Virus record (IMG/VR): IMGVR_UViG_3300042477_000341
Length of the DNA: 64,000 bases
Direction: 5' to 3' (one strand)
Origin: an uncultured virus (IMG/VR IMGVR_UViG_3300042477_000341)
Lineage: Duplodnaviria; Heunggongvirae; Uroviricota; Caudoviricetes
Shown here: positions 36,554 through 52,707 of the stretch, in pieces
How the letters are laid out: each line of letters begins with the position of its first letter
Numbering within the stretch: the stretch's first letter is position 1
Made by a program: the position numbers and the translations under genes
Notes under the pieces: model-generated
The model's database searches: none
Seen by the model: the letters and a program-made list of their open reading frames with translations, nothing else
Told to the model about the DNA's origin: nothing

Positions 36554-36603
36554 ACCTCAATTATATAACATTATTTTCATAACATAAGGTGTATAATTAT
36601 ATT

Positions 36604-38532: not shown

Positions 38533-39057
38533 GTTATATCCTAGTCGACTGCTTTTAATATCCTACTAAATGTTAATAAAATATTTTTTTGCCTATTGCA
38601 TATTGCTTATATATATTATATATTCTTTTTATTGATTACTTGGGAATTAGATTTTTTAGCAAACCCCCCCTACCCCCCAAATTTTAACTTTTTGGAAAGA
38701 TAGAGGAGAGTTGCAAGATCCAATCCCAAGAATTACTTGGTGTATTGAGTTCTCTAGTGTAACCCCCGAAACCTTCCCAAGTATAACATTACGTATTTTC
38801 GAAAGTCAATAGCTTTTTGAAATTTGAGAAAATGTTAATATATTTTTAACTTGTATGATACACACTATAGAAAATGTCCGATTTGCCCGATAGTGAGCAC
38901 ATAGGCTTCCGACCTTGAGCGTGAGTGTGATGCGACTCACAAAAGTTTTTTACCGACACGCCCGAGAAACGGGCATAAATGTCAGTCCCCCCTGCTAGAC
39001 TAAATATATAAAGAAAAACAAGCGGTAAAGAAATCCGCTAAAGAAAGGAGCAATCAA

Positions 39058-39210
39058 ATGCTCACTCAAAAAACACTAGACGCAATCGTCTATGAATACC
39101 AACACGGGGGCGTGAAGTCTAACCACCCCGAATTGACTACCTATGAACGCAAGGCGTTGCTAAAGCACCTCTTTAGCCTACCGACCTATTGCGCTTGTTG
39201 TGTGAGGTAA
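39058..39210 (+). CDS. first small gene of the early island
   Basis: AAGGAG RBS; MLTQKTLDAIVYEYQHGG...CACCVR (50 aa). Confidence 0.65.
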   Translation: MLTQKTLDAIVYEYQHGGVKSNHPELTTYERKALLKHLFSLPTYCACCVR

Positions 39211-39382
39211 ATCACACGGACACTAGGGTCTAAATCCCCCTAAATGTCAGTCGTATCGGCTACAATAACGACATAACAACTAAATAAGAATTAGAGCGTG
39301 AGCCTAGCAAATAATCCGAAAGGTGAGCCTAGCAAATAATCGCTCAACAACTAACTAACTACTAACGAAAGAAGAACAGACA

Positions 39383-39535
39383 ATGACTATCACATACACA
39401 CTATGGCAAGGCTCTCAACTATTAGCCGTCAATCAAAAGGCTAGCAAGCCTGAAGAAATCTTAGCGGTAATCGCTGAACTAAATAAACTAGGTAAGGGTT
39501 TCACTTACAACATTAGAGAAGTAGAGGTCAAGTAA
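39383..39535 (+). CDS. small hypothetical protein
   Basis: MTITYTLWQGSQLLA... (50 aa); stop overlaps the next ATG. Confidence 0.65.
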   Translation: MTITYTLWQGSQLLAVNQKASKPEEILAVIAELNKLGKGFTYNIREVEVK

Positions 39536-39717
39536 TGTCATACGCATACTCATACAATACAAACACGATAGATAAATACGAGTCTATCCAATCAGATGTC
39601 GCAGACGCATACACTTATCTAGATGAGGCAGATGAAGAACAACCGCCACTAGATGACTTTGATGATGTTGATGATGAAGAATTAGCAAAAGTATTCGCAC
39701 TAAGTTGGGATAACTAA
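39535..39717 (+). CDS. small, very acidic protein
   Basis: Asp/Glu-rich 60 aa; coupled start. Confidence 0.65.
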   Translation: MSYAYSYNTNTIDKYESIQSDVADAYTYLDEADEEQPPLDDFDDVDDEELAKVFALSWDN

Positions 39718-39719
39718 TA

Positions 39720-39875
39720 ATGATACCTAACGGATTTGATTTATACATAACAAGCGAATACGGATTTGAGTTAGATAGTTTCTTAGGGTCTATCTATCTA
39801 CCTTGGCACACTATTATTATCACCGCCCTAGCACTAATCGCTTATAAGATTTATAAGAGAAAGAAGAATAAGTAA
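39720..39875 (+). CDS. small membrane protein
   Basis: MIPNGFDLY...WHTIIITALALIAYKIYKRKKNK. Confidence 0.6.
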   Translation: MIPNGFDLYITSEYGFELDSFLGSIYLPWHTIIITALALIAYKIYKRKKNK

Positions 39876-39985
39876 TGACTACTAATCGCATACTAACTAC
39901 GCTAGTCCAATTAGGTATCGGTATCCCCGCCCTAATTATGCTACGCCTAGTAATTCGTGATCTAATTCACAATAAATTACGCTAA
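39875..39985 (+). CDS. small membrane peptide
   Basis: MTTNRILTTLVQLGIGIPALIMLRLVIRD...; coupled start. Confidence 0.5.
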   Translation: MTTNRILTTLVQLGIGIPALIMLRLVIRDLIHNKLR

Positions 39986-40189
39986 CGCTACGGCGTGTCG
40001 GCTTGACAAAGTCAAGCTGGCCCGCAAGGGCACGGGGTCGGGCGTGTCGTTACGCTAATGTTATAGAACCCCTTGAATTTTGTGAGGTTTATCACAAAAA
40101 AAGATTTCTTGAAACACGGCGTGTCGTGTTGATAATGTCGGTGTGCTCGTGTATACTACCTACTATAACCACAACGAAAGGTCGATAAA

Positions 40190-40318
40190 ATGACACTAGA
40201 TGAATACAAGGCTTATGTAGAAGCCACACGCAAGGAAAGCCTATTGAAGGCTATCGCAACAATGTCAGAGGCTAATGATAAGATGTCCTCTCTATTCAAT
40301 ACTAAGGAGGCAGACTAA
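40190..40318 (+). CDS. small hypothetical protein
   Basis: MTLDEYKAYVEATRKES... (42 aa) after the promoter at 40136. Confidence 0.6.
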   Translation: MTLDEYKAYVEATRKESLLKAIATMSEANDKMSSLFNTKEAD

Positions 40319-40441
40319 ATGGGTTATGTAGAAATCTTTCGCATAGATAACGAGGGTGCGGGTTGGGTAGATTTATCCGAAGCAACCCCCGATGAATTAC
40401 TAGATTTAGAAATTGGATTATTTCAGGAAGGTGCGCTCTAA
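40319..40441 (+). CDS. small acidic protein
   Basis: AAGGAGG RBS; MGYVEIFRIDNEGAGWVDL... (40 aa). Confidence 0.6.
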   Translation: MGYVEIFRIDNEGAGWVDLSEATPDELLDLEIGLFQEGAL

Positions 40442-40593
40442 TGAAAAGATACACATTTGGCGTTTGGCTAGACATAGATGCAGAAGATGAAGAAATGGCT
40501 ATTTCTTTATTTGATAGCGTTGTAAAAAATGCTTTTGTTTCAGACTCTTATTGTTTTGAATGGAAAGAGGTTGCAGATGAAATCGCAGTTTGA
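40441..40593 (+). CDS. small hypothetical protein
   Basis: MKRYTFGVWLDIDAEDEEMA... (50 aa); coupled start. Confidence 0.55.
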   Translation: MKRYTFGVWLDIDAEDEEMAISLFDSVVKNAFVSDSYCFEWKEVADEIAV

Positions 40594-40771
40594 AAAAGAT
40601 TTAGAAATCAAAGAAAGTTTTATAGACTTTCTAAATGACCTTTATCCAACTGTAAAAATCGGCTACTCAACTTTCACACCCGCCGAAATTCTAGAGTGTT
40701 GCGATCCTGTTGCGTTTGCGATTGGATTAGTAGAGCACGAAGATTATTTAGCAGAATTAGAAGAAGAATAA
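40577..40771 (+). CDS. hypothetical protein
   Basis: MKSQFEKD...YPTVKIG...PAEIL..CDPVAF. Confidence 0.65.
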   Translation: MKSQFEKDLEIKESFIDFLNDLYPTVKIGYSTFTPAEILECCDPVAFAIGLVEHEDYLAELEEE

Positions 40772-41021
40772 CGGCGTGTCGGCTTGACAAAGTCAAGCTG
40801 GCCCGCAAAGGCACGGGGTCGGGCGTGTCGTTACGAGATTGTTATAAAATCCCGTGAAATTTGCGGCGTGTCGATTTGACAGACAAATCGGACATATTGA
40901 TGTGATTAGTATCACACGGCTTGAGCGTCTCATTATTTGGACTTACTGGCTAGTAATGTGAAAATGTCAGTAGGCTCGTGTATAATTCCATACATAACAA
41001 CAAACGAAAGAAGGTCTGCCA

Positions 41022-41228
41022 ATGGCTACCAAACTATACACAATCGAAAGCCTACTCGTAGGACAAAACTACCGCTCACGCAATCGCCACTTTGCTGGTG
41101 AAATTGTATCCGCTAAGCCTCGCCCTGAAATTTGGTATGGCGATAAAACTGAAGCGTTTCTAATCGAAATTCGCACAGGCGGTCTGCGAAATAAATTCGC
41201 AACTGTTGCCGTAAAGGTTGGTGAATAA
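41022..41228 (+). CDS. hypothetical protein
   Basis: follows promoter 40965 and an AACGAAAG leader. Confidence 0.7.
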   Translation: MATKLYTIESLLVGQNYRSRNRHFAGEIVSAKPRPEIWYGDKTEAFLIEIRTGGLRNKFATVAVKVGE

Positions 41229-41550
41229 ATGATAACTAAAGATTACATTGACCAAACCGAATTCTATTTGGTAAAAGATGAGCAACACTTTTGCTGTGAT
41301 GAAAGTCAATTCCGCTATGTGTGTAAAGCACACGGCGAGCAAATGGATTGCTACTTTTGCGGATTTGATTATGACCAAGATTGCGAGGAACAACACTAAT
41401 GATAAATTCAGTAATGACTTTCCCTTGTGATGAATGTGATGGTTCAGGTCTTATCTTTTGGGGTAATGACCTTGACTATGATGTCGAGCCTTGCGATTGC
41501 GCTCTAACTCCAAACTATAACCACTACAACCCAAACGAATAGGAAAACTA

Positions 41551-41754
41551 ATGTATAAAATAACTTGTGCTTATGATAGCAACGCTCCCCACTGGTCTGC
41601 CGAATACGAAAGCGAATTTGGTGCTTGGGAAAACTTTTTCAAATTTACCGATTGGGGATTTGCTGATGAATACTCAACTGTAAATATTTACACGCCAACA
41701 GGCAAATGCTATACAAAAGTTTTCTACAGAACAGGAATGGTATCAGTTAAATGA
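41551..41754 (+). CDS. hypothetical protein
   Basis: ORF track. Confidence 0.6.
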   Translation: MYKITCAYDSNAPHWSAEYESEFGAWENFFKFTDWGFADEYSTVNIYTPTGKCYTKVFYRTGMVSVK

Positions 41755-41942
41755 TGACACGCAAAGATTATGTCGCAACGGCAGAAATTCTAAAGTATGC
41801 TAGCAATAAAATTCACCCCGCTGTTTTTTCTAAAATCGTAAATGATTTCGCTGAAATGTTTGCGGTTGATAATGAAAGATTTGATGTAAAACGATTTCAC
41901 GAAGCGAGTGGGTATAATGTTCCTAACTTCACTTCAAGATAA
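41751..41942 (+). CDS. hypothetical protein
   Basis: MTRKDY...DNERFD..RF..A small phage protein pattern. Confidence 0.65.
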   Translation: MMTRKDYVATAEILKYASNKIHPAVFSKIVNDFAEMFAVDNERFDVKRFHEASGYNVPNFTSR

Positions 41943-42188
41943 AGTTAAACGAATTCAGGAATTGCGTCGCAGTAATGCGGCGCAACCTGTTCGTAATAAA
42001 AAAAAATACACACGCAAAATAAAACATAAAAATAAATTTGATCAATAGCCCGCAGCTTGGCCCCCAAAGGCACGGGGTCGGGCGTGTCGTTACGGCTGTG
42101 ATCAAAATCACCCTGGAAAGCTGGGCCAAGATTGGAATATGTCGGTCCATTCTGCTATACTTGCCATTCAACCAACGATTGAGGTCCA

Positions 42189-42908
42189 ATGAAACTAAAA
42201 CGCTCTAACGATAGAAAGGTGGCTAACCTTGTCACAAAAAATGGAAAGCAAGCCGCAATTGCGAACACGTTCGGGCTCCCTGCAGGAAAGAATTATTCAT
42301 GCCCTGGTGCCACTAGTATTTGTGAGAGTGTTTGCTACGCAGGAAAACTCGAAAAGTTATTCCCTGGAGTAAAAACTAATCTGCTACACAATTGGGAATT
42401 GCTACGCAATGCCGATATGGAAACAATGTATCAATTGCTAAATGAAATGATTATTGATTTCAAGGCTGATTGTGTAAAGAAAGACGCCCCTATGTTATTC
42501 CGTATCCACTGGGACGGGGATTTCTTCAATGATTTCTATACTTATGCCTGGAAGAATGTAATCAATGAGCACACCGATGTTCAATTCTGGGTTTACACAC
42601 GTGTAAAGTCTGCAGCGCTTATTCTAAAGGATGTTCCTAATCTATCTCTTTACTATTCCACCGATGATGATAATAAGGAAATCGGTCACGAACTAAAAGT
42701 AAATGAGGGAATTCGTCTTGCCTACCTAGGGAAGACATTCGCCGTGACTGAAAGCACAATGAAAGAATTGACGGGCAAGCCTGGTGCTAAGTGTCCTGAG
42801 AATATGAAATCAATTCCACTTATCTCTTCTGCAGGGTCCGCCTGCGTATCGTGTGGATTGTGTGTTTATGGTAAAGCGGATATAAGATTTTCTGCGAGTA
42901 AAAAATAA
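42189..42908 (+). CDS. GP88-like protein (Cys-rich, radical-SAM-like)
   Basis: FGLPAG..SCPGA...C...CYA; FRIHWDGDF; FWVYTR; C-terminal CP...CVSCGLC. Confidence 0.75.
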   Translation: MKLKRSNDRKVANLVTKNGKQAAIANTFGLPAGKNYSCPGATSICESVCYAGKLEKLFPGVKTNLLHNWELLRNADMETMYQLLNEMIIDFKADCVKKDAPMLFRIHWDGDFFNDFYTYAWKNVINEHTDVQFWVYTRVKSAALILKDVPNLSLYYSTDDDNKEIGHELKVNEGIRLAYLGKTFAVTESTMKELTGKPGAKCPENMKSIPLISSAGSACVSCGLCVYGKADIRFSASKK

Positions 42909-43251
42909 ATGTATGACGTGATCGGATCTGTAATTGGAATTATATTAATTGCATTCTTGTGCTCACCACTTGTGCTAGCGGTGTACATGTGGCGTGGGGC
43001 CAAGATTGATAGTGATAATGACGGTAAAGATGATGTGCCCTATCGTTGGGAGAAACAATAACGGCGTGTCGAGTTGACAATTGTCAGCTCGGCCCCTATA
43101 TGTAGGGGGGTTATCCACAGGCTTACGAGAGTTATCCACAACCCCTGAAATTGTGAGGTTAATCACAAAAGCTGCGACACGCCGAGGATGGATTAGGTAA
43201 TGTCAGTGCCATACGCTATAATTGCTACTATCCAACAACGAAAGGCTACAA

Positions 43252-43476
43252 ATGTCTAATCTAATGAAAGTTCCACACACAGTTGTATTCGAGGCAATTA
43301 TTGACTTGGATAAAATTCCTGCAAGTTTATTGCCTGCGCTAATTGCGCTTGATAAAAGTTCAATTGAACAAATGTGCAAGGAAGCAACACTACACGCACT
43401 TGGTATGTCTAATGTATTACCACTTGCAAATGATAACAACACTTGGGCTGAAGTAACTATCAAAGGAGATAACTAA
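43252..43476 (+). CDS. hypothetical protein
   Basis: start corrected to MSNLMK after AACGAAAGG. Confidence 0.65.
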   Translation: MSNLMKVPHTVVFEAIIDLDKIPASLLPALIALDKSSIEQMCKEATLHALGMSNVLPLANDNNTWAEVTIKGDN

Positions 43477-43478
43477 TA

Positions 43479-43742
43479 ATGGGATACAACACTGCGCTTG
43501 ATTTTGCAGAATTAGATTTAGAACAAGGTATTGCTATGCACTTACAAGGTAATCATTACCCGCCCGTTCCACTATCTATGGTCGAGCCTTGCATCGAGGC
43601 TATTGACGCCTATTGGGAAAATGACTACAACCGACAGATCGAAATGCCTGAAGGCGTATTCTATCGAGGCGAAAGGTTTGCCCCTGCATCGGCTATTGTC
43701 GAACAGCACCACTTAGACGCTTGGCTACAAGAAAGTGACTAA
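43479..43742 (+). CDS. hypothetical protein
   Basis: HLQGNHYPPVP...HHLDAW. Confidence 0.7.
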   Translation: MGYNTALDFAELDLEQGIAMHLQGNHYPPVPLSMVEPCIEAIDAYWENDYNRQIEMPEGVFYRGERFAPASAIVEQHHLDAWLQESD

Positions 43743-43836
43743 GGTCACACAATAAGTTTCTCAAATACTGAGATAGGGCTAGACAAATGTCAGACCCCAA
43801 TGTTATACTTACCACCTACACAGAAAAGAGGCAAAA

Positions 43837-44019
43837 ATGACAATCAACGACAAGTTGTATCAGGTTGGCGATTTATTCACCACCCTAAAGTCAAAAAAGA
43901 CGGGCGTTATCAAAGAGATACACCCACAAGCATCTGGCTCGGTGCGTGTCTTGCTAGAAATGCCTAGCAAAGAAACTCGCTGGACTTCAGTATCTGCTAA
44001 AACACTTCTAGGCGCATAA
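43837..44019 (+). CDS. small SH3-like hypothetical protein
   Basis: YQVGDLF...TGVIKEI; follows promoter 43788. Confidence 0.6.
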   Translation: MTINDKLYQVGDLFTTLKSKKTGVIKEIHPQASGSVRVLLEMPSKETRWTSVSAKTLLGA

Positions 44020-44148
44020 CCTAGAACGAAACAGGGACAGTTTAGAGAGTGTTCTAGTCCAATGTCGTAAGTAAGAACTCTCCACCTTCGGGTGGAAATG
44101 TCAGACCCCCCTGCTATACTAATCAACCAACCAACGAAAGGAAATACA

Positions 44149-44565
44149 ATGAGCAGACAAATCACAGTAAAGGTAGCAACAAGCAAAGTAATCAAAGCAC
44201 TAGAGGCTCGTCTAGCAACACTAGAAAGCGATTACAGCACACAGACCGCAAAGGAAGCAAAGTTCGGCAAAGCGCAAGAAGCGTGGCGCAAGGAAATCGG
44301 TAAGTGGGCTATTGCCAACTTCTCAAAGGCTGAGAACCTTCGCACAAACTATCGTCAATGGAACAACACTCTCAATGTTGATTTTGACATCATCACAAAA
44401 GATGGAAGTTTTCCTGCTGAACCTGAAAAGGATTTTGAGGTTATCCATCAGCACCAGTATCGTGAGATGAAAGAGGACATTACAAATGCTCTCACAATTC
44501 TCAAGATGACAGATGAGGAAACAGTAAATGCTTCTACAATGAAGCAGATTGCTAAGTATCTCTAA
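44149..44565 (+). CDS. hypothetical coiled-coil protein
   Basis: start corrected to MSRQIT after AACGAAAGG. Confidence 0.7.
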   Translation: MSRQITVKVATSKVIKALEARLATLESDYSTQTAKEAKFGKAQEAWRKEIGKWAIANFSKAENLRTNYRQWNNTLNVDFDIITKDGSFPAEPEKDFEVIHQHQYREMKEDITNALTILKMTDEETVNASTMKQIAKYL

Positions 44566-44633
44566 ATAATCCAACGACCTGAGTATGTCGCCAAACTGCT
44601 CTCCTTCGGGAAACTACTAACAAAGGCAATACA

Positions 44634-44894
44634 ATGGCAAATCGTTATCGTGTTGAAATCTATGACGCAAACAAACTCAATGATGTAACAATTTATTCTG
44701 AGCAAGGTGTTGATAAGGAATACCTAACTGAATTAGTTTTTAGTAATCTAAATAAATTCAGCGGCAAAATAAATGCTTACGTTTTTGATAACGTAAAGAA
44801 AAAGAAGACAACCGCAATGTTCTTAGATGAATCTATTGTGAACTTCAATAAACAATTACTAAGCAAGGCTACAAGGATCGAATTCGGGAGTTAA
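44634..44894 (+). CDS. hypothetical protein
   Basis: ORF track. Confidence 0.6.
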   Translation: MANRYRVEIYDANKLNDVTIYSEQGVDKEYLTELVFSNLNKFSGKINAYVFDNVKKKKTTAMFLDESIVNFNKQLLSKATRIEFGS

Positions 44895-45074
44895 TCCTGA
44901 GCTCGGCCCCCAATAGGGAGGGGTTATCCACAGCGTTACGGCCACCTGTGGATAAGCCCTGAAATTCTGTGAGATTAATCACACTGATCAATTCGGACAT
45001 ATTGTAACTAATCCTAGACAATGTCAGTGGGGTCTGTTATACTTACAACTAATCAAACGAAAGGTAAAAAATAT

Positions 45075-46082
45075 ATGGCTCACAATCTAGAAATGGAAAA
45101 CGGCGAAGTTGCTTTCGCTCTCCGTGGCGCACCTGCTTGGCACAACCTAGCAAATCGCATCTTTACAAAAGATGAGGAAGTTACAACTGCAACAATGCTT
45201 GAAGAAGCAAAGTTAGCAAATTGGAATGTTCGCTTATCTCCACTCACCGACCACATTTCAGAATCTTGGAATGATGTATCTCAGGCTCAGTTGGTTATTC
45301 GTGATAACCCATTCAATAAGGGAACTGATGTTCTTGCAACTGTTGGCAAGCGTTACAAGCCAGTTCAGAATGAGGAACTATTTGCATTTGCCGATGCAAT
45401 TCACGATGCCAATGCTGATTGCCGTTGGGAATCTGCTGGCTCACTAAAGAAGGGCAAAGTCGTGTTCGGAACTGTAGATATTCCACGCACAATGGTTCTT
45501 GACCCACAAGGCGCTAACGATGAGACAAAACTTTATCTCATTGTATGGACTTCACACGATGGTTCTGTTGCCGTTCAAGCAGCGGTTACTCCTGTTCGTG
45601 TTGTCTGCCAAAATACATTGAACCTTGCAATGCGTAATGCAAAGCAATCATTCAAGATTCGTCATACACAATCTGTTGATGGTCGTATTCAAGTTGCTCG
45701 TGAAACTCTTGGGCTTGCTCTCGGTTACTTCGATGAATTCGAAACTGAAGCAAAGGCACTTTACTCTCAGGCAATTACTGATGCTGAATTCTCTAAGTTG
45801 ATTCAGACAATCTATCCTAAGCCAGATAAGGATTCTGCTAAGGTTGCATTGACTAAGTGGGAGAATAAGGTTGTATTGCTTGATGACCTTTACCACAATT
45901 CACCAACTAACGCTAACATCAAGGGAACTAAGTGGGGTGCTTTCAATGCACTTACTGAGCGCCTTGACTATTATCGTTCAGGTCGTGGCAATTCTGAAAC
46001 ACTAATGGCTGGTGCATCAGGCTTTGACCCAATTCTAACTGCTGAGAAAAACAAAATCAAGAAATTGGTTTCTGCTTTCTAA
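45075..46082 (+). CDS. DUF932 / TIGR03299-like phage-plasmid protein
   Basis: MAH...PAWH, YKPVQN, SAGSL, SHDGS, TPVRVVCQNTL, IRHT, GTKWGAFNA.TE; start corrected. Confidence 0.85.
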   Translation: MAHNLEMENGEVAFALRGAPAWHNLANRIFTKDEEVTTATMLEEAKLANWNVRLSPLTDHISESWNDVSQAQLVIRDNPFNKGTDVLATVGKRYKPVQNEELFAFADAIHDANADCRWESAGSLKKGKVVFGTVDIPRTMVLDPQGANDETKLYLIVWTSHDGSVAVQAAVTPVRVVCQNTLNLAMRNAKQSFKIRHTQSVDGRIQVARETLGLALGYFDEFETEAKALYSQAITDAEFSKLIQTIYPKPDKDSAKVALTKWENKVVLLDDLYHNSPTNANIKGTKWGAFNALTERLDYYRSGRGNSETLMAGASGFDPILTAEKNKIKKLVSAF

Positions 46083-46129
46083 ATAAATAAATCCTGAGCA
46101 AGATTTAAAACTGCTCACAATTTTTTCTT

Positions 46130-46203
46130 GATCCATTAGCTCAGTTGGTTAGAGCGCTACCCTGTCACGGTAGAGGCCGACGGTTCAAGTCCGTTATGGA
46201 TCG
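46130..46203 (+). tRNA. tRNA-Asp(GTC)
   Basis: acceptor GATCCAT/ATGGATC, D arm AGCTCAGTTGGTTAGAGC, anticodon arm CTACC-CTGTCAC-GGTAG, T loop TTCAAGT. Confidence 0.92.
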
Positions 46204-46308
46204 CAAAGCGCCCGCAATGTTAAGGGAAGTAAAAATGTGTTACGACTCACATAAAAAAAGCCCTGAAAACTATTGCACATGTCAGTGGGGTCGTGTATAA
46301 TTCTCGGC

Positions 46309-46968
46309 ATGACAAAGTATCAGAAGTATACCTGGGTGTGCACAAGCGATTGTGATGCCTTAATTGAATATACCTTTAAAGATGGCTATGGATGGCCAAA
46401 CGGTGTGATGGACCTCACATGCAGATGTGGGACCAGTTGCACATTATTGTCAGTGGAAGATGCTACAATACCGTATACAGATACACCCCTAACGAAAGAG
46501 GAACCAATGGAAACAACAGAAACATCAGCAGTAACAATTCCTGATACATACAATCCTAACTTATTGGTTACATACAAAGTAATCCGTGGTTATTCAGATG
46601 CAGAATATGCAACTGACAAAGTCTCATCAATTGAATGGGACCTTCATAACTCTAGAACTAATTCTAAAACAATTCACGTTTTAAATTCTAAGATTGACAC
46701 AGTCAAGGATATTATCACTGAGGCATATGCCGATTCAGATGACCAAGATACACTTCGTGCAATTGCTGAAGCGCTTGGCATTGAACTAGTTCGAGAAGTT
46801 CTATTTACTGCAACTCTTGAAGTTAGCGGAACATATTCATACAATGTATTAGATTCAGATTATGAATTGGACCTTGATTCAGAAGTCACAGATGCTCTTT
46901 ACGCCGATTCAAATAACGGTAACATCACAATTGATGACACCGAAGTTTGCCACGTAAGGGAAGCATAA
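46309..46968 (+). CDS. hypothetical protein; probable leaderless long form and internal start at 46507
   Basis: ATG 8 nt after TATAAT; second promoter (46448) plus AACGAAAGAGG before in-frame ATG 46507. Confidence 0.65.
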   Translation: MTKYQKYTWVCTSDCDALIEYTFKDGYGWPNGVMDLTCRCGTSCTLLSVEDATIPYTDTPLTKEEPMETTETSAVTIPDTYNPNLLVTYKVIRGYSDAEYATDKVSSIEWDLHNSRTNSKTIHVLNSKIDTVKDIITEAYADSDDQDTLRAIAEALGIELVREVLFTATLEVSGTYSYNVLDSDYELDLDSEVTDALYADSNNGNITIDDTEVCHVREA

Positions 46969-47180
46969 TGTATTTTGAGTTGACTGCTCCCGATAGGCTA
47001 TCTCTTGAGATGGCTTATTGGGATGCACAAATCACTGGACTCGACCCTGAGTTTATGCCACCGTTGACATTCAATGTCGGAACTGGTAGTATTGAGAAAG
47101 TAAGTCGCATTCGTGACAAGTATAATTTATCAGAATCATATTGGTCAGATAGAGAAGCGACAGGATATAAGGAGAAATAA
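46968..47180 (+). CDS. hypothetical protein
   Basis: MYFELTAPD...; coupled start. Confidence 0.6.
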   Translation: MYFELTAPDRLSLEMAYWDAQITGLDPEFMPPLTFNVGTGSIEKVSRIRDKYNLSESYWSDREATGYKEK

Positions 47181-47322
47181 TGTCAGATTACAAAGATGGT
47201 TTTGAAGACGGGTATAAGTTTGCTCGTGAAGAGATGATGGAGAAGTTGGCAGAGATTGATATCGCTGACATCGACTCTTGGATTCTTGACCGTCTTTCCG
47301 AAATGATTGAAGGTGGAACATT

Positions 47323-47532
47323 ATGACAACTGAGGATCTAACTAGATGGATTGGCTGTGATCAATGTGGTACAGCTCAAGCAAAGTATGTAGTTAAACTA
47401 GTAGAAGGCGAGCTTTTCTTCTGCGGGCACCACTACAATGCAAGCAAGGCAGGCCTTGACAAGGTCGCATACGAAGTGATAGAATTAAATAAAACGGAAG
47501 AAGCAATACCTATACTAGAAACGGCGGAATAA
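47323..47532 (+). CDS. small zinc-binding protein
   Basis: CDQC...LFFCGHH. Confidence 0.7.
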   Translation: MTTEDLTRWIGCDQCGTAQAKYVVKLVEGELFFCGHHYNASKAGLDKVAYEVIELNKTEEAIPILETAE

Positions 47533-47533
47533 A

Positions 47534-47902
47534 ATGGGCGACAGAGCAAACTTTGGATTTAAAGATTCTAAGGGCGATGTACTATATCTATACGGACACT
47601 GGGCTGGACATCGCATGCTAGAGAATTTAGCAAATGCTGTAGAGCAGGCACGTCCTAGGTGGAGCGACCACTCATATGCAACACGTATATGCATTAGCCA
47701 ATTGATAAATGAGGAATGGCCTAGCGAAACTGGATGGGGCCTCTACATCAATCAATTAGGCGATAATGAGCACAAGGTACCTGTAATTAACTGGGCCGCT
47801 AAAACGTTTACCCTCATGGAAGAGGACCTGCAGGCAGAAGTCTTCAGTCAATCGCTGGATGCATTTGTCTCAAAGTATTCCAGTCAACCAAGTATGGTAT
47901 AA
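47534..47902 (+). CDS. hypothetical protein
   Basis: MGDRA...LYLYGHWAG...RWSD.SYATRI. Confidence 0.7.
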   Translation: MGDRANFGFKDSKGDVLYLYGHWAGHRMLENLANAVEQARPRWSDHSYATRICISQLINEEWPSETGWGLYINQLGDNEHKVPVINWAAKTFTLMEEDLQAEVFSQSLDAFVSKYSSQPSMV

Positions 47903-48025
47903 TTAATCCAAGGACCTTGGTCCTGGTTTTAATATAGAAATGAAATGGTGCATCTATTAGTCTACGGGCCAGGTGCTAAGTAAAGCGGTTTATTTCTTTC
48001 GTTGGAAATCAGCAGCCATATTCAT

Positions 48026-48056
48026 ACCCCCAGCTTATAGCTGGGGGTTTTCTTTT
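48026..48056 (+). terminator. intrinsic terminator
   Basis: ACCCCCAGC-TTATA-GCTGGGGGT followed by TTTCTTTT. Confidence 0.8.
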
Positions 48057-48231
48057 GCCCACAAAGACATGAGGGTATCATATCTCTTTTACGAGGTCAA
48101 TATGAAAACTCCTGAAATTCTGTGATCTTGACCACATTCTGAATAAAATGTGGTGTGACTCACACCCAAATAGTATTCCAATTGTCAGTGGTCCAATGTA
48201 TAATTATCACATATCAACGAAAGGATATAAA

Positions 48232-49023
48232 ATGCCAAATTGGTGTTATAACACATTAACTATCCAAGGACCTAAGTCTGAGGTAGATATGATTAAAGAT
48301 AGATTGAATAAGCCATTTGTATTAGCACAAGAGACATATGGTATGGGTGATATTAGTCTTTCAGGTTTCCCCACCAAAATTGAATTAGTTGAATATAATA
48401 ATCCTGTCTTTGCTTTCCACAATATCCACTCATATAAGGATGACGGAATTACTGATGAGGAATATGCTTGCCAACCTAATCGTGGTGATATAGATATTCA
48501 GAATGACCCTGATTGGTTCCGCAAATCTGTTGAGTTTGCTAAGACTCAAAAGGATTGGTATTCTTGGAATAATTCTAATTGGGGAACCAAATGGGATGTA
48601 GCCGTCCGTGACGGTGATAAATATCCAAATACAGAATTGCTTGAATATAAATCAGAAGGTGATGACAATTGGGTTGTCTATAAGTATGAGACTGCTTGGT
48701 CACCTGCTGTAACTATCTTAACTAAACTAAGTAATCTTGTTCCTAACTGCCTGCTCACATTAGAGTTTGAGGAAGAAACAGGTTGGGGTGGAGAATATGA
48801 GATTGTCCGTGGTGAAGTAAAGGAAATCTTGGAATATGAAAACCGTTGCTATGCTTGCCAGTCTTTTGATTGTGTTGAGTATTGCGAAGATGACTGCGGT
48901 GAATTCTGCTCAGAATGTAATCAAGGTTCTTGGCAGGATGAAAAGGCTATGGCAGAATGTCAGACCCATAGTGTATTATTACCTTTGAAAACCTACACAC
49001 AGGAGGAAGCGCTAAATGGCTAG
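48232..49023 (+). CDS. YubB/DUF1281-like ferredoxin-fold protein
   Basis: MPNWCYNTL, WYSWN..NWGTKWD, YETAWSP; start corrected. Confidence 0.8.
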   Translation: MPNWCYNTLTIQGPKSEVDMIKDRLNKPFVLAQETYGMGDISLSGFPTKIELVEYNNPVFAFHNIHSYKDDGITDEEYACQPNRGDIDIQNDPDWFRKSVEFAKTQKDWYSWNNSNWGTKWDVAVRDGDKYPNTELLEYKSEGDDNWVVYKYETAWSPAVTILTKLSNLVPNCLLTLEFEEETGWGGEYEIVRGEVKEILEYENRCYACQSFDCVEYCEDDCGEFCSECNQGSWQDEKAMAECQTHSVLLPLKTYTQEEALNG

Positions 49024-49234
49024 TTTCTTAGAAGATGTAAATCAAATGGTAATTGACGCTGTATATCAAGATATAGCAGAACAATTACTAGAGGACTGGA
49101 TTAATAATAATCTAGATGAAGGCCAGTACTATGCAGATAAACAATTTGCAGAAATGTCAGGAGATGAATTTATATATGGTGAATTCAATAAGTTCTATAA
49201 TCTAAAAGAGGGAGATGAGGATTACCTATGTTAG
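49016..49234 (+). CDS. acidic hypothetical protein
   Basis: ORF track; GGAGG RBS. Confidence 0.6.
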   Translation: MASFLEDVNQMVIDAVYQDIAEQLLEDWINNNLDEGQYYADKQFAEMSGDEFIYGEFNKFYNLKEGDEDYLC

Positions 49235-49410
49235 GCTACACTGAATCCGATCTAAATAGAATGATTAATGCTATACACGATTCAAAGCTTTTCTATCTTA
49301 GGACCCCGTCCGATTTAATGGACAAGGAGCCTTTGAGGAAAGACTTGGAAGACGCTGTTAGTTTCTTGCAAGGTCTGTGGGCGGAGGGTTACTTTGACTA
49401 CACAAACTAA
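49228..49410 (+). CDS. hypothetical protein
   Basis: MLGYTE...FLQGLWAEGYFD. Confidence 0.6.
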   Translation: MLGYTESDLNRMINAIHDSKLFYLRTPSDLMDKEPLRKDLEDAVSFLQGLWAEGYFDYTN

Positions 49411-49588
49411 GTCTAGTAAATTCATAGAGTATATGAAGATACATCTAATTAGTCTTAACCAGGACTTGGATAAAGACTTGAATGTTCAATCTAAGATTAA
49501 TATCCAGGGACAAATTATGGCAACCGAACATTTATTGTCAGTGGCTACTGATATAATGAATGACAACCTACAAGGAAAGGGATATTAA
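49394..49588 (+). CDS. hypothetical protein
   Basis: ORF track; GGAGG upstream. Confidence 0.55.
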   Translation: MTTQTKSSKFIEYMKIHLISLNQDLDKDLNVQSKINIQGQIMATEHLLSVATDIMNDNLQGKGY

Positions 49589-49878
49589 TGAATGCTGAAG
49601 ACATTGGGCTCCCGCCCCATTTGCAACGTATGGTTAATGCAGATGTACCTGGAATAGATATAATGCACGGGGAACTAAAAAACCTAATGCTTATTGCTGA
49701 ACAAGAACTATCGGACGCAATTGAACAAGAAGAGCGGTCCGAAGAGGCAATGGATTCTATGGTCCGAACAGAATGTGAAGGACGACTAGATACTCTAACA
49801 GAACTATATAAACTAACATATGATTTATCATTTGCGATTGGAATTCGCACAGAAAATAGAAAGGACGGGCACATTTGA
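49588..49878 (+). CDS. hypothetical protein
   Basis: follows promoter 49536. Confidence 0.65.
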   Translation: MNAEDIGLPPHLQRMVNADVPGIDIMHGELKNLMLIAEQELSDAIEQEERSEEAMDSMVRTECEGRLDTLTELYKLTYDLSFAIGIRTENRKDGHI

Positions 49879-50111
49879 TGTCATACGAGCCAACCTTGGA
49901 AATCCTGGAAATGGAATACTCTTGCTCACCTGGAGGAGTAGATACATTTGAGGTCTATGATAAAACAGATATACCTTTGTCTGTCCCAATATATGAGACT
50001 GAGTCCTTGACGGATGCTGTGCTCTACTGTTATAATTTAGGGAAAGACTTTACTGTCAAGACATTAGCGGAATGGAATGAAAGGGAGTTAGCATATGAAG
50101 CCAGCCGATAA
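49875..50111 (+). CDS. hypothetical protein
   Basis: ORF track. Confidence 0.6.
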   Translation: MMSYEPTLEILEMEYSCSPGGVDTFEVYDKTDIPLSVPIYETESLTDAVLYCYNLGKDFTVKTLAEWNERELAYEASR

Positions 50112-50409
50112 AGATAAACTCAACGAATGTTTAAAGATTCTAGATACCACCGACCTTGGATTATCCCTGGTTTGGTTGTGGACCTGGTCCACCATTAACA
50201 ACTTTAGAAGCGACACAGACTGGGAAGTGGTGGCAACTGAGGACGAGATGTGGGCACACCTCTGTGAGGCTGTGGAGGCTGGTATGGGCTTTACATTAGA
50301 GTATGGTGCCGAACAGCATTACGAAGATGTAATGCAATGGATGTTGAGTCGAGAATATATGATTGACCTCAATGACGACAGGGAAGAAGACGAAGATGAA
50401 GATGAGTGA
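50095..50409 (+). CDS. acidic hypothetical protein
   Basis: ORF track; GGAG RBS. Confidence 0.65.
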   Translation: MKPADKDKLNECLKILDTTDLGLSLVWLWTWSTINNFRSDTDWEVVATEDEMWAHLCEAVEAGMGFTLEYGAEQHYEDVMQWMLSREYMIDLNDDREEDEDEDE

Positions 50410-50625
50410 TCAATACATCAATGATCAGTTAAGTAAGGCCCAAGCTTTGTTATGGTCTGGATCTCTACATGAGGTAGACGAAGCACATAACATTGTATCT
50501 AATCTAATTAGAGATAGGTTAGAACAAGTTTCTAACTAAGGGCAAGTTTTTCAGTTTACGAAAGCTATTTACAAAGCCGTGAATAGTTGATATAATTAAA
50601 GCAAACCGATCTAGAAAGGATCATC

Positions 50626-50778
50626 ATGACAACAAAGCGAGAATATCTAAAGACACAAGGCATCACAGTAGGTGTACGTGGTCGCTTCTCAGGAGCTGCT
50701 AAGGTAGCTATCCAGGAAGCTATCAACAAGGGCATTACATTTTCAGATCCGCAGCCAGCTACAAACAAGGCTAAGTAA
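50626..50778 (+). CDS. Lsr2-like DNA-binding mini-protein
   Basis: Not in the ORF track. MTTKREYLKTQGITVGVRGRFSGAAKVAIQEA...; RGR motif; own TTTACA-N17-TATAAT promoter and terminator. Confidence 0.65.
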   Translation: MTTKREYLKTQGITVGVRGRFSGAAKVAIQEAINKGITFSDPQPATNKAK

Positions 50779-50784
50779 ACCAGG

Positions 50785-50830
50785 GACGGGGTTAGGGCTT
50801 CGTTGGTCCTTGACCCCGTTTCTTATTTTT
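50785..50830 (+). terminator. intrinsic terminator after the Lsr2-like gene
   Basis: ACGGGGTTAGGG...CCTTGACCCCGT plus T-rich tail. Confidence 0.65.
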
Positions 50831-50859
50831 GATATAATGATAGGTTAGAAAGGCGGACT

Positions 50860-51240
50860 ATGAGTAAGACACAAGAAATCAAAGTAGCAGAAGCACTAGT
50901 TAATCTAACAGATGACCATTGGTTCAACCCTACTATTTTCGGTAGATATTTGGCAGACCAGCCAGTATATACAGTTGATAGAATTGTTGAGATGTTGGTA
51001 TCTGTCATTAGCGAACTAGACAAAGTATATGAACTGCTAAAAGTAAGAGGAACTTCGTCAGAAGGTCTGCTTCTTGCCAATGAACTAAATGAATGTATCA
51101 AAGCATATCAGGAAGTCAATGTTATATCTAATCTAAAATTACCTAAACCTACCACATATAATATAAAGCGGGAGGTCAAAGTAGAACCAAGAGTCTTTGG
51201 TTATACAGATGAAGATAAGAATCCATTTGACCAAGTATAA
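50860..51240 (+). CDS. hypothetical protein, last gene of the plus-strand island
   Basis: TTGACC...TATAAT promoter and AAAGG RBS. Confidence 0.7.
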   Translation: MSKTQEIKVAEALVNLTDDHWFNPTIFGRYLADQPVYTVDRIVEMLVSVISELDKVYELLKVRGTSSEGLLLANELNECIKAYQEVNVISNLKLPKPTTYNIKREVKVEPRVFGYTDEDKNPFDQV

Positions 51241-52621: not shown

Positions 52622-52707
52622 ACCCTAAGTATAGTATATATGACGGGTACCGTCAATAGGGCTTCTACTTTCCGCCGCACTTTTCGCTTCACTAATTGCG
52701 AGCTATA

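What the first reader, a model, noticed from the sequence alone, without database searches (positions are those of the whole stretch)
38980..49557. Phage gene island wired to 14 PafBC/RecA-NDp DNA-damage promoters
Seen: 14 exact TGTCRG-N10-TAnnnT matches, all on the plus strand, confined to about 10.6 kb and each shortly upstream of a start codon (38980, 39245, 40136, 40263, 40965, 42140, 43201, 43788, 44099, 45022, 46280, 46448, 48183, 49536). The 10-nt spacer length is invariant while its sequence varies. Established: this is the RecA-NDp consensus of mycobacteria, read at -26 by the WYL-domain activator PafBC, which is switched on by ssDNA. Inference: the phage drives a whole block of early/takeover genes through the host LexA-independent DNA-damage activator, perhaps triggered by its own incoming DNA, or through a phage-encoded mimic. 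I know of no description of this strategy.
Basis: partly seen in the sequence, partly recalled or inferred. Interest (0 to 1): 0.92.

Follow-up and report, generated by a model that had tools for sequence, protein, structure and literature searches.

The report
Actinophage island with PafBC-type promoters
A very abundant lake-water phage of actinobacteria drives a hypervariable block of small genes from 15 near-identical promoters built like the DNA-damage promoters read by the actinobacterial activator PafBC, which suggests the phage uses its host's damage alarm to switch these genes on.

Summary
There are 15 (not 14) exact TGTCRG-N10-TANNNT sites, all on the + strand, at 38980-49557 (shuffles: mean 0.97, max 3).

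The phage is not a mycobacteriophage. It is a ~115-kb, 38.5% GC, WhiB-encoding siphovirus from lake water, and its closest isolates are Streptomyces phages (Stanwilliamsviridae).

In 80 related IMG/VR loci the motif occurs 1130 times forward and 5 times reverse. The spacer is strictly 10 nt, there is no -35 element, and a TG-extended -10 is present. Relatives down to 54% portal identity keep the motif. Streptomyces relatives and D29 lack it.

The architecture equals the published PafBC consensus tGTCgg(N10)tA(N3)T, with the 5' part at -28..-23. In 58 distinct actinobacterial-type recA promoters from metagenomes, the unconstrained positions -22..-19 (W-S-S-C; TGG/ACC) show the same preferences as the phage promoters.

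No WYL, sigma, MotA or AsiA gene was found in the phage. The rest of the genome uses canonical -35/-10 promoters. Lake metatranscriptome contigs cover the island.

Best reading (about 0.58): these are sigma-adaptation promoters read by host RNAP-sigmaA with host PafBC. The host identity, dependence on PafBC and the transcription start sites remain untested.

The parts
38980..51287 (+). Plus-strand island of about 36 mostly small ORFs, divergent from the otherwise minus-strand genome. The part 39128-50006 is missing from the near-identical record G001.
   Evidence: Strand map of the 115,305-bp genome.
38980..39001 (+). P1 TGTCAG-N10-TAGACT. A GC hairpin lies just upstream. ATG at 39058.
39245..39266 (+). 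P2 TGTCAG-N10-TACAAT. Long 116-nt leader carrying a direct repeat. ATG at 39383.
40136..40157 (+). P3 TGTCGG-N10-TATACT. ATG at 40190.
40263..40284 (+). P4 TGTCAG-N10-TAAGAT, lying inside the preceding small ORF. ATG at 40319.
40965..40986 (+). P5 TGTCAG-N10-TATAAT. ATG at 41022.
42140..42161 (+). P6 TGTCGG-N10-TATACT. Drives the GP88-family gene 42189-42908.
43201..43222 (+). P7 TGTCAG-N10-TATAAT. ATG at 43252. RNA-library contigs of two runs begin at 43249 and 43259.
43788..43809 (+). P8 TGTCAG-N10-TATACT. ATG at 43837.
44099..44120 (+). P9 TGTCAGACCCCCCTGCTATACT. A hairpin (44079-44098) lies just upstream. ATG at 44149. Near-identical TGTCAGACCCCCCTGCTATAAT/ACT sites recur in the distant relatives G004, G006, G007 and G008.
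45022..45043 (+). P10 TGTCAG-N10-TATACT. Drives the DUF932 gene 45075-46082.
46130..46204 (+). tRNA-Asp(GTC) inside the island.
46280..46301 (+). P11 TGTCAG-N10-TATAAT. The ATG at 46309 lies 7 nt after the -10, so a leaderless mRNA for a 219-aa protein (46309-46968) is likely.
46448..46469 (+). P12 TGTCAG-N10-TACAAT, inside the 46309-46968 ORF. With the RBS and in-frame ATG at 46507 it would give a 153-aa short form.
48026..48048 (+). Intrinsic-terminator-like hairpin (10 pairs plus a T run) ahead of P13.
48183..48204 (+). P13 TGTCAG-N10-TATAAT. Drives 48232-49023 (DUF1281_C/Api92-like domain). An RNA-library contig starts at 48228. A variant contig carries a different promoter of the same class before 48211.
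48958..48979 (+). It lies in the 3' end of the preceding ORF. ATG at 49016.
49536..49557 (+). P15 TGTCAG-N10-TATAAT. ATG at 49588.
50007..50838 (+). Three canonical sigma-70-type promoters with TG-extended -10: 50007-50036, 50568-50596 and 50810-50838, each 11 of 12 matches. They drive an acidic 104-aa protein (50095-50409), a 50-aa Lsr2-like peptide (50626-50778) and a 126-aa protein (50860-51240).
51259..51287 (+). Terminator-like hairpin (11 pairs plus a T run) closing the plus-strand block.
38780..38809 (-). Canonical TTGACT-N18-TATACT promoter pointing away from the island, back to back with P1.

Best explanation
The 15 sites are promoters of a hybrid '-26/-10' class. They have a TG-extended housekeeping -10 (TGnTAtAAT), no -35 hexamer, and an invariant TGTCAG (rarely TGTCGG) exactly 10 nt upstream, at -28..-23.

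They drive a hypervariable, cassette-like island of small accessory genes in a ~115-kb freshwater actinophage. Each cassette has a promoter, a short A-rich leader, an AACGAAAGG-type RBS and one to a few small ORFs.

The most likely mechanism is sigma adaptation. Host RNA polymerase with its housekeeping sigma A cannot use these promoters through region 4. An adaptor sitting between sigma region 4 and the DNA recruits it by reading the GTC core. The adaptor is most probably the host's own ssDNA-activated WYL regulator PafBC, because the phage encodes no WYL protein.

The island would then be switched on when infection produces ssDNA, from DNA entry, end resection, replication or nuclease attack. 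The rest of the phage is read from ordinary -35/-10 promoters.

Shown: the motif, its statistics, its conservation, the architecture, the shared extended consensus with recA promoters, the actinophage identity, and presence in RNA libraries.

For: (1) Window statistics: 15 of 15 sites on one strand, against 0.97 expected.

(2) Relatives: in 80 related IMG/VR loci (1,299,586 bases) there are 1130 forward and 5 reverse matches; the reversed-pattern control gives 6 and 1; there are 258 distinct 22-mers. Spacing is N10 only (1130, with 0 at N9 and 0 at N11). The hexamer is TGTCAG 1055 times and TGTCGG 75 times.

(3) Position matrix: no -35; W-rich -31..-29; T/A at -22, S at -21 and -20, C at -19; T at -15 (0.63) and G at -14 (0.76); TAtAAT.

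(4) Published PafBC motif: tGTCgg(N10)tA(N3)T, 5' part at -23..-28, no -35, GTC read by PafB R46/R50 and conserved across actinobacteria; PafBC occurs 'in almost every actinobacterial species' (PMC8635444, passages).

(5) Independent check: a metagenome scan for the motif upstream of a RecA N-terminus returned at least 120 stretches. 80 were fetched and 70 parsed, all with RecA N-termini. In 58 distinct actinobacterial-type promoters the unconstrained positions agree with the phage:
- -22: T .60 / A .29 (recA) vs T .69 / A .22 (phage)
- -21: G .69 / C .19 vs G .53 / C .39
- -20: G+C .98 vs .93
- -19: C .66 vs .52
- Top triplets: TGG, ACC, AGG, TGC vs TGG, ACC, TGC, TCC.
These four columns are the only contiguous block of free positions with positive log-odds (a few isolated columns, -31, -13, +2 and +4, are also positive), and they rank 2, 0, 1 and 0 of 39 control columns.

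(6) Actinophage identity: WhiB. GP88 homologues in 283 Mycobacterium, 99 Streptomyces and 4 Fromanvirus records of 390 matching phage records; the other 4 are 2 Synechococcus and 2 unclassified Caudoviricetes. Portal 60-61% and DnaE 55-57% identical to Streptomyces phages.

(7) Phage repertoire: no WYL domain in six frames of G001; no WYL, sigma, MotA or AsiA in Pfam scans of the called ORFs.

(8) The rest of the genome has canonical TTGACW-N17/18-TAnnnT promoters, several also with TG. The host sigma therefore reads ordinary -35 elements, and TGTCAG stands in place of the -35.

(9) Deep conservation: relatives with portal identity of 79, 60, 58 and 54%, plus a fifth fragmentary record (G006) with no portal match, keep the same hexamer, spacing and even the same spacers, in clusters of 6-15 sites. 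G003:C31 shares only 9 of 36 island ORFs yet has 12 sites.

(10) RNA: 21 lake-water metatranscriptome runs hold 42-73% of the island's words. Contig depth is higher in the island (bin 43671-44337: 26-52) than in the flanks (bin 36334-37000: 0-1.0; bin 53009-53675: 0.1-2.5) (contigs only, so a weak hint).
Against: - The host is unknown, and I could not open any actinobacterial genome. Whether it has pafBC, or uses TGTCAG, is untested.
- None of the 70 parsed recA loci has a GC near 0.40; the lowest are 0.50-0.54.
- Six Streptomyces relatives (BillNye, StarPlatinum, Mildred21, SaltySpitoon, Mandalore) and mycobacteriophage D29 show no cluster (counts 0, 0, 2, 0, 3, 0), although their hosts have PafBC. 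One paper does report that the M. smegmatis PafBC motif is not conserved in S. venezuelae (PMC9380542).
- The phage sites differ from the recA set. At -24 the phage has A .88 where recA has G .69. At -29 it has A .70 where recA has T/C. The phage also has a consensus TG-extended -10, which might work without any activator.
- All six hexamer positions are near-invariant in the phage, whereas only GTC is strongly conserved in the published host motif.
- A family-conserved phage HTH protein of unknown role exists (L007:6943-7425).
- PafBC needs ssDNA, which makes it a risky dependency for a lytic phage.
- No transcription start site was mapped (table 6: none).
Confidence: 0.58

Rival explanations
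1. Same promoter class, but the adaptor is phage-encoded: a constitutive, WYL-less stand-in for PafB made from the canonical promoters or carried in the virion. The island would then be a classical 'middle' class, comparable to T4 MotA/AsiA.
For: - All six hexamer positions and the spacing are more rigid than in the host motif.
- The motif is confined to one aquatic clade and is absent from Streptomyces relatives.
- Streptomyces relatives carry a different conserved element (CCGCCCCGGYCAAAAGATCTTG plus -35/-10) in homologous cassettes. The upstream half of the promoter therefore co-varies with phage lineage.
- Candidate proteins exist: the conserved basic HTH protein L007:6943-7425 (weak HTH_17), and three proteins made from canonical promoters at 50.0-51.2 kb.
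Against: - No WYL, PafB-like, MotA, AsiA or sigma domain was found.
- The HTH candidate is also present in relatives that lack the motif and has no hit to solved PafBC structures.
- The three proteins made from canonical promoters are acidic or very short, and no DNA-binding family was detected in them.
- A phage factor would not explain why free spacer positions match actinobacterial recA promoters, unless it copies PafB's read-out.
Confidence: 0.15
2. The TG-extended -10 is sufficient on its own. TGTCAG would then be an operator for a repressor (a shut-off or immunity-like site), or only a modulating site, rather than an activator site.
For: - The extended -10 is close to consensus: T at -15 (.63), G at -14 (.76), then TAtAAT.
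- Host recA promoters with the same -26 element have a weak -10 (TAGCGT) and no TG. The phage sites therefore have much more intrinsic strength.
Against: - The phage's other promoters keep a -35 hexamer even when they have TG. The extended -10 alone therefore seems insufficient, and TGTCAG sits where an activating element would be needed.
- The position, orientation and extended consensus match a known activator site.
Confidence: 0.12
3. Another host factor that binds at -26 reads the motif: a second WYL activator of the SiwR kind, or some other sigma-adapting regulator, rather than PafBC itself.
For: - Actinobacteria hold several WYL regulators per genome (PMC6789036).
- SiwR also acts through a -26 element (PMC10693628).
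- The authors of the PafBC structure suggest that sigma adaptation is widespread (PMC8635444).
Against: - SiwR's conserved triplet is GGA, not GTC.
- The phage hexamer and its flanks match the recA/PafBC type.
Confidence: 0.1
4. The repeats are primarily recombination or packaging signals (joints for cassette shuffling) and are not promoters.
For: - Strong mosaicism around them: 1119 instances, 263 upstream and 237 downstream sequence clusters, 443 pairings.
- RNA-library contigs show other promoters of the same class joined at 48211 and 39356.
- 69 contig ends lie within 10 kb of the DUF932 gene in 80 loci.
Against: - Strict strand bias, a perfect -10, and a fixed distance to an RBS and start codon.
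- The island is covered by RNA-library contigs.
- Shuffling at promoters is known as a by-product in T4-like PeSLs (PMC4122927) and does not exclude promoter function.
Confidence: 0.03

Closest known systems
PafBC-dependent (RecA-NDp) promoters of mycobacteria and other actinobacteria; sigma adaptation
   Same: - A 22-nt bipartite motif with a GTC-containing hexamer at -28..-23, an exact 10-nt spacer, a housekeeping -10 TAnnnT and no -35 (PMC8635444).
- The same preferences at -22..-19 as recA promoters from metagenomes.
   Different: - Found in a phage, 15 times in 10.6 kb, and driving small ORFs of unknown function rather than repair genes.
- A instead of G at -24, and A instead of T at -29.
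- A consensus TG-extended -10.
- All six hexamer positions are near-invariant.
- Dependence on PafBC and ssDNA has not been shown.
T4 middle promoters (MotA box plus AsiA; sigma appropriation)
   Same: A phage promoter class in which the -35 is replaced by a factor site closer to the -10, while the host housekeeping sigma still reads the -10. The PafBC authors themselves draw this comparison (PMC8635444).
   Different: - No MotA or AsiA homologue.
- A different box sequence and position: the TGCTT Mot box, as quoted in PMC4122927.
PeSL promoter/stem-loop cassettes of T4-like phages
   Same: Repeated promoter units that flank small variable ORFs in hyperplastic regions and coincide with mosaic joints (PMC4122927).
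   Different: - PeSLs carry sigma-70 -35/-10 promoters.
- Here only about 3-4 of 15 promoters have an adjacent hairpin.
- The upstream element is the -26 hexamer.
Terminal-repeat gene cassettes of Streptomyces phages (Stanwilliamsviridae, e.g. SaltySpitoon)
   Same: Homologous arrangement and partly homologous genes: GP88 and Lsr2-like genes, one promoter per small gene, an ACGAAGG-type leader, and a hairpin before the promoter.
   Different: - The Streptomyces cassettes use TTGcnn-N17/18-TAGACT plus an upstream CCGCCCCGGYCAAAAGATCTTG element.
- TGTCRG-N10-TANNNT is absent there.
Host-takeover / pre-early modules in terminal redundancies of SPO1 and T5 (recalled, not checked in a paper here)
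   Same: A compact block of many small genes, each with its own strong promoter, set apart from the rest of the genome.
   Different: - Those modules use ordinary host-sigma early promoters.
- A terminal-repeat location is not shown for this island.

Membership tests
PafBC-dependent (RecA-NDp) promoter class | Hexamer tGTCgg with a conserved GTC core at -28..-23 | tested here: met
   TGTCAG or TGTCGG in 15 of 15 window sites. In relatives: 1055 TGTCAG plus 75 TGTCGG. Position relative to the -10 as published.
PafBC-dependent (RecA-NDp) promoter class | Exactly 10 nt between the hexamer and a housekeeping -10 TAnnnT | tested here: met
   N10 = 1130; N9 = 0; N11 = 0.
PafBC-dependent (RecA-NDp) promoter class | No -35 consensus | tested here: met
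   Information content at -36..-32 is at most 0.17 bit. The sigma-70 scan finds only 9-10 of 12 partial matches at some sites, and the regional total of 57 is not far above shuffles at 43.7 +/- 6.7.
PafBC-dependent (RecA-NDp) promoter class | Same extended sequence preferences as bona fide actinobacterial PafBC-type promoters (recA) | tested here: met
   Positions -22..-19 agree. Positions -24, -29 and the -10 interior differ.
PafBC-dependent (RecA-NDp) promoter class | Host encodes PafB/PafC | not tested
   The host is unknown. Actinobacterial genomes could not be reached. Only the literature statement that PafBC occurs in almost every actinobacterial species is available.
PafBC-dependent (RecA-NDp) promoter class | Transcription requires PafBC activated by ssDNA | not testable with these tools
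   Needs in vitro transcription or reporter assays.
T4-type MotA/AsiA middle promoters | Phage-encoded MotA and AsiA, and a TGCTT Mot box near -30 | tested here: not met
   No such Pfam families in any called ORF. The box sequence differs.
Canonical sigma-A/sigma-70 promoters | TTGACA-like -35 placed 16-18 nt upstream of the -10 | tested here: not met
   Absent from the 258-sequence matrix. Present at other promoters of the same phage.
PeSL cassettes | Promoter immediately preceded by a stem-loop, at mosaic joints in hyperplastic regions | tested here: inconclusive
   Hairpins precede P1, P9 and P13 only. Mosaicism is strong, but my clustering is crude.
Stanwilliamsviridae-like actinophage (identity of the carrier) | Shared core genes with Streptomyces/Rhodococcus phages of this family, and a WhiB gene | tested here: met
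   Portal 60-61%, DnaE 55-57%, WhiB about 50% and the HTH protein 42% identical. Formal family demarcation was not computed.

The most novel reading that the evidence does not exclude
A globally abundant clade of freshwater actinophages has rewired its whole hypervariable accessory island, probably takeover and counter-defence genes, onto the host's ssDNA-sensing activator PafBC. The host's own DNA-damage alarm then serves as the phage's infection or attack sensor: the island fires when phage DNA is resected or cut. The identical 22-30-bp promoters also serve as joints for swapping gene cassettes between phages. This would be the first case of a virus exploiting sigma adaptation. It would also be a natural set of hundreds of optimised PafBC promoters.
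Probability: 0.3. Interest if true: 0.88.

Novelty: new variant of a known kind. Interest (0 to 1): 0.78.

Why it matters
PafBC sigma adaptation is so far known only as a host DNA-damage response. My searches found no paper that links it to phage promoters:
- 'PafBC'+'phage'+'promoter': 54 papers, 20 listed.
- PafBC with actinophage or prophage terms.
- 'sigma adaptation'+'bacteriophage': 6 papers.
- 'cyanophage'+'TGTCAG'.
I judged these by titles and abstracts only. One cited paper on pafBC and mycobacteriophage resistance (ACS Infect Dis 2025, seen only as a reference) is not held, and I could not read it.

If the reading is right, it shows a new way for a lytic phage to time gene expression: borrowing a conditional host activator instead of making its own. 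It also predicts that phage infection switches PafBC on. It supplies 258 or more natural promoter variants that define the extended PafBC site. And it gives a handle on gene regulation in uncultured, ecologically dominant lake actinobacteria and their phages.

Tried and rejected
- **Cyanomyovirus idea.** Low GC and tail-fibre-like hits to Synechococcus phages suggested a T4-like cyanophage. I rejected this. The motif is at chance level in S-PM2, S-MbCM7 and S-RSM4. The rest of the genome is a siphovirus with WhiB, DnaE, and an HK97-type capsid and portal closest to Streptomyces phages.
- **Syn9 transcriptome paper** (Doron 2016): not held.
- **Host identification.** The window's assembly is not held. 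'of' needs a genome handle. The protein atlas gave only viral WhiB clusters. The search for homologous proteins with RecA was saturated by the phage group (best 120 of 4604 hits, all 89-96% identical). Metagenome loci cannot be given handles.
- **Phage-encoded reader.** Pfam at E<=0.05 gave only sub-threshold HTH hints. The HTH protein has no informative PDB sequence match.
- **De novo dyad search.** Outside the island and in the small-gene region of BillNye it found no second -26-type motif.
- **Terminal repeat.** G001 lacks exactly 39128-50006, and GP88 lies in the terminal repeats of BE-type Streptomyces phages. But contig ends in 80 loci are scattered over 39.5-54 kb rather than piled at two points. 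A terminal repeat is therefore not shown; hypervariability explains the breaks.
- **RNA contigs.** They cannot give transcript starts (table 6: none). Uncovered parts carry no weight.
- **Rfam:** only the two tRNAs in 38-53 kb.
- **IMG/VR pattern scan.** Single-site loci with no similarity to the group look like chance hits. No clearly unrelated phage lineage with a cluster was found, so the test 'do unrelated phages of the same host share the motif' remains open.
- **Not used:** no structure prediction and no complex prediction was run.

Full report
**1. The observation.** The pattern TGTCRG-N10-TANNNT matches 15 times in the window. All matches are on the + strand, between 38980 and 49557. 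Dinucleotide-preserving shuffles give a mean of 0.97 and a maximum of 3. It missed one further site at 48958.

With flanks the sites read roughly aaa-TGTCAG-Tgg/Accc...cTGc-TATAaT. A short A-rich, G-poor leader follows, then an AACGAAAGG-like ribosome-binding site and an ATG. The -10 lies 27-56 nt from the start codon in 13 of 15 cases. It lies 116 nt away at 39245. At 46280 it lies 7 nt away, where the ATG at 46309 would make a leaderless mRNA. The next site, 46448, lies inside that same ORF. It precedes an in-frame RBS and ATG at 46507, so two promoters may give a long and a short form of one protein.

**2. What carries it.** GC is 0.31-0.47 across the window, so this is not a mycobacteriophage. 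Some fibre-like proteins, a tryptophan halogenase and 2OG oxygenases resemble cyanomyovirus genes. I first suspected a T4-like cyanophage, but the motif is at chance level in S-PM2, S-MbCM7 and S-RSM4.

The nearest held record, G001 (104,426 bp), equals window 1-39127 and 50007-64000 at 99.99-100% identity and lacks 39128-50006. Window plus G001 gives a 115,305-bp genome. That size matches many 110-117-kb IMG/VR contigs.

The part outside the window encodes the following:
- a portal, an HK97-type capsid and a 2768-aa tape measure;
- DnaB, primase and DNA polymerase III alpha;
- RecA, RuvC, Hsp20 and a CHAP lysin;
- WhiB.

The closest isolates are Streptomyces phages of the Stanwilliamsviridae. 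Identities are portal 60-61%, DnaE 55-57% and WhiB about 50%. The island's GP88-family protein has homologues in 283 Mycobacterium, 99 Streptomyces and 4 Fromanvirus records out of 390 matching phage records; the other 4 are 2 Synechococcus and 2 unclassified Caudoviricetes. WhiB is regarded as an indicator of actinophages (PMC10202952, passages). The phage is therefore an actinophage of low GC. 21 lake-water metatranscriptome runs hold 42-73% of the island's sampled words, so the habitat is fresh water. The host itself is unknown.

**3. Anatomy of the island.** Almost the whole genome is transcribed on the minus strand. The block 39.0-51.3 kb and a small cluster at 33.2-34.6 kb are on the plus strand. 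I called about 36 ORFs in the island. Five have Pfam families above cut-off: GP88, DUF932, DUF7455, a DUF1281_C/Api92-like domain, and a weak NUMOD1 hit. PHROGs adds a 50-aa Lsr2-like peptide. A tRNA-Asp lies inside the island.

After the last TGTCAG site, the plus-strand block continues with three canonical TTGACN-N17/18-TATAAT promoters (11 of 12 matches, each with TG). It ends at a strong terminator at 51259-51287. Elsewhere the phage also uses canonical -35/-10 or TGnTATAMT promoters. One of these lies back to back with P1 at 38780-38809. The phage therefore has two promoter classes, and its host's sigma evidently reads ordinary -35 elements.

**4. Conservation.** A DUF932 query returned 286 IMG/VR relatives, of which the best 80 loci were kept. 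In their 1,299,586 bases the motif occurs 1130 times forward and 5 times reverse. The pattern read backwards occurs 6 and 1 times. There are 258 distinct 22-mers. Spacing is N10 only (1130, against 0 at N9 and N11). The hexamer is TGTCAG 1055 times and TGTCGG 75 times, and other single changes are rare.

The matrix from the 258 distinct sites shows:
- no -35;
- A/T at -31..-29;
- T or A at -22, S at -21 and -20, C at -19;
- T at -15 (0.63) and G at -14 (0.76);
- TAtAAT at the -10.

A relative with 72% RecA identity (G003:C31) shares only 9 of 36 island ORFs but has 12 clustered sites. An IMG/VR pattern scan led to more distant relatives. Their portal identities are 79, 60, 58 and 54%, and a fifth, fragmentary record has no portal match. 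They carry 6, 8, 7, 10 and 15 clustered same-strand sites with the same hexamer and even identical spacers. By contrast BillNye, StarPlatinum, Mildred21, SaltySpitoon, Mandalore and D29 have 0, 0, 2, 0, 3 and 0 scattered matches.

In SaltySpitoon the homologous terminal-repeat cassettes have a hairpin, a CCGCCCCGGYCAAAAGATCTTG element, TTGcnn-N17/18-TAGACT, and the same ACGAAGG-type leader. The cassette design is therefore ancestral, and the aquatic clade has exchanged the -35 half for a -26 element.

**5. Comparison with PafBC promoters.** The published in vivo consensus is tGTCgg(N10)tA(N3)T. Its 5' part lies at -23..-28 and there is no -35. The GTC is read by PafB R46/R50 and is almost invariant across actinobacteria. 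PafBC inserts between sigma-A domain 4 and the DNA, and it is present in almost every actinobacterial species (PMC8635444, passages). It is activated by ssDNA (PMC11804915, passages). The phage motif has the same hexamer core, position and spacing.

As an independent test I scanned metagenome contigs for the motif followed by a start codon and the conserved GKG[SA][VI]M of RecA. 70 parsed, and all begin with RecA N-termini. 54 of the 70 also show the Walker A motif within the fetched part. GC ranges from 0.50 to 0.74. 58 distinct promoters precede RecAs with the DREKAL-type N-terminus. I take these to be actinobacterial; that is my inference from sequence signature, GC and the literature, since no tool gave a taxonomy.

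At positions that neither search constrained, the two sets agree:

| Position | recA promoters | Phage promoters |
|---|---|---|
| -22 | T .60 / A .29 | T .69 / A .22 |
| -21 | G .69 / C .19 | G .53 / C .39 |
| -20 | G+C .98 | G+C .93 |
| -19 | C .66 | C .52 |
| Top triplets | TGG, ACC, AGG, TGC | TGG, ACC, TGC, TCC |

This agreement holds although the recA loci are about 66% GC and the phage about 39%. These four columns are the only contiguous block of free positions with positive log-odds; a few isolated columns (-31, -13, +2, +4) are also positive. They rank 2, 0, 1 and 0 among 39 control columns.

There are also differences. At -24 the phage has A where recA has G. At -29 it has A where recA has T/C. 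The recA promoters have TAGCGT without TG, whereas the phage has TG-n-TATAAT.

**6. Who reads it.** The phage has no WYL domain in six frames of G001. It has no WYL, sigma, MotA or AsiA family in any called ORF. Its only candidate regulators are three:
- the family-conserved WhiB;
- a basic 160-aa protein with a sub-threshold HTH_17 match, which is also conserved in the Streptomyces relatives that lack the motif;
- three small proteins made from the canonical promoters at 50.0-51.2 kb, none with a detectable DNA-binding family.

The host's PafBC is therefore the most economical reader (about 0.58). A phage-encoded stand-in (0.15), factor-independent extended -10 promoters with TGTCAG as an operator (0.12), and another host -26 factor such as a SiwR-like WYL regulator (0.10; PMC10693628) remain open.

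The absence of the motif from Streptomyces phages counts somewhat against a universal host factor. However, one paper reports that the M. smegmatis PafBC motif is not conserved in S. venezuelae (PMC9380542).

**7. Expression.** Contigs from four lake metatranscriptome libraries cover the island. Depth there is higher than in the flanking minus-strand genes. For example, the bin 43671-44337 has depths 26.1, 26.3, 37.8 and 52. The bin 36334-37000 has 0, 0.81, 0 and 1.01. The bin 53009-53675 has 1.58, 0.12, 0.6 and 2.5.

Some contigs begin 17-30 nt after the predicted start sites of P7 and P13. Variant contigs carry other promoters of the same class joined at 48211 and 39356. These are contigs, not reads. 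They are a weak hint of transcription, and they map no start site.

**8. Mosaicism.** Around 1119 promoter instances I found 263 upstream clusters, 237 downstream clusters and 443 pairings. 89 of the 237 downstream modules have more than one upstream partner (crude k-mer clustering). 69 contig ends fall within 10 kb of DUF932 in the 80 loci, scattered over 39.5-54 kb. The island is a population-level hypervariable region, and the promoters probably double as recombination joints, as described for PeSLs (PMC4122927). A terminal-repeat location is possible but not shown.

**9. Novelty.** I found no paper that connects PafBC or sigma adaptation with phage promoters (searches; judged by titles and abstracts). 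One cited 2025 paper on pafBC and mycobacteriophage resistance could not be read.

The promoter class itself is known. Its wholesale use by an abundant phage clade is new. I rate this as a new variant of a known kind, with interest 0.78.

Noticed in passing
window 50626-50778 (+): A 50-aa stand-alone peptide matches the PHROG 'Lsr2-like DNA bridging protein' (E 8.6e-9) and contains an RGR motif. It sits behind a canonical promoter. From memory, RGR is the Lsr2 DNA-binding motif. A mini-Lsr2 in a 38.5% GC phage could counter host Lsr2 silencing of AT-rich DNA.
   Followed up: partly
window 46280-46968 (+): Two promoters serve one ORF. P11 gives a probable leaderless mRNA (ATG 7 nt after the -10) for a 219-aa protein with a Cys-rich N-terminus. 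P12, inside the ORF, gives a 153-aa form lacking that N-terminus.
   Followed up: partly
L105 (Streptomyces phage SaltySpitoon, record 1-10262): The terminal-repeat cassettes of this phage share a conserved unit: a hairpin, CCGCCCCGGYCAAAAGATCTTG, TTGcnn-N17/18-TAGACT, and an ACGAAGG leader. The upstream element looks like a factor site. I did not search for a description of it.
   Followed up: partly
L018-L097; window 39356 and 48211: Promoters coincide with mosaic joints. The same downstream module is found behind up to 15 different upstream modules, and RNA-library contigs show alternative promoters of the same class joined at the predicted start sites.
   Followed up: partly
L251-L330 (metagenome recA loci): Actinobacterial-type recA promoters share an extended consensus beyond the published one: W at -22, S at -21 and -20, C at -19, C at -13, and -10 TAGCGT. 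There are two spacer classes (TGG... and ACCC...).
   Followed up: partly
G002 (contigs C3, C6, C49, C57, C106, C174, C213, C215) and G003:C31: Contigs of this phage group are binned into MAGs labelled Bacteroidia and 'uncultured cyanobacterium'. This is a binning artefact, and it could mislead host prediction.
   Followed up: partly
window 39267-39382 (+): The 116-nt leader after P2 contains a direct repeat (GTGAGCCTAGCAAA twice) and no obvious ORF. It may be a small RNA or a regulatory leader.
   Followed up: no
window 1-30000 (-) and 54801-56330 (-): This actinophage carries collagen-like and glycine-rich fibre proteins, a 1168-aa structural protein 36-38% identical to cyanomyovirus proteins, two 2OG-Fe(II) oxygenases, a PASTA-domain protein and a tryptophan halogenase. 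This suggests gene sharing between lake or marine phages of different hosts.
   Followed up: partly
window 50095-50409 (+): A very acidic 104-aa protein ending in a DEDEDE tail sits behind a canonical promoter at 50007, exactly where record G001 resumes. It might be a DNA mimic or an anti-restriction protein. That is speculation.
   Followed up: no
window 52258-52329 (-): A second tRNA gene, Arg(CCG), lies on the minus strand just right of the island.
   Followed up: no
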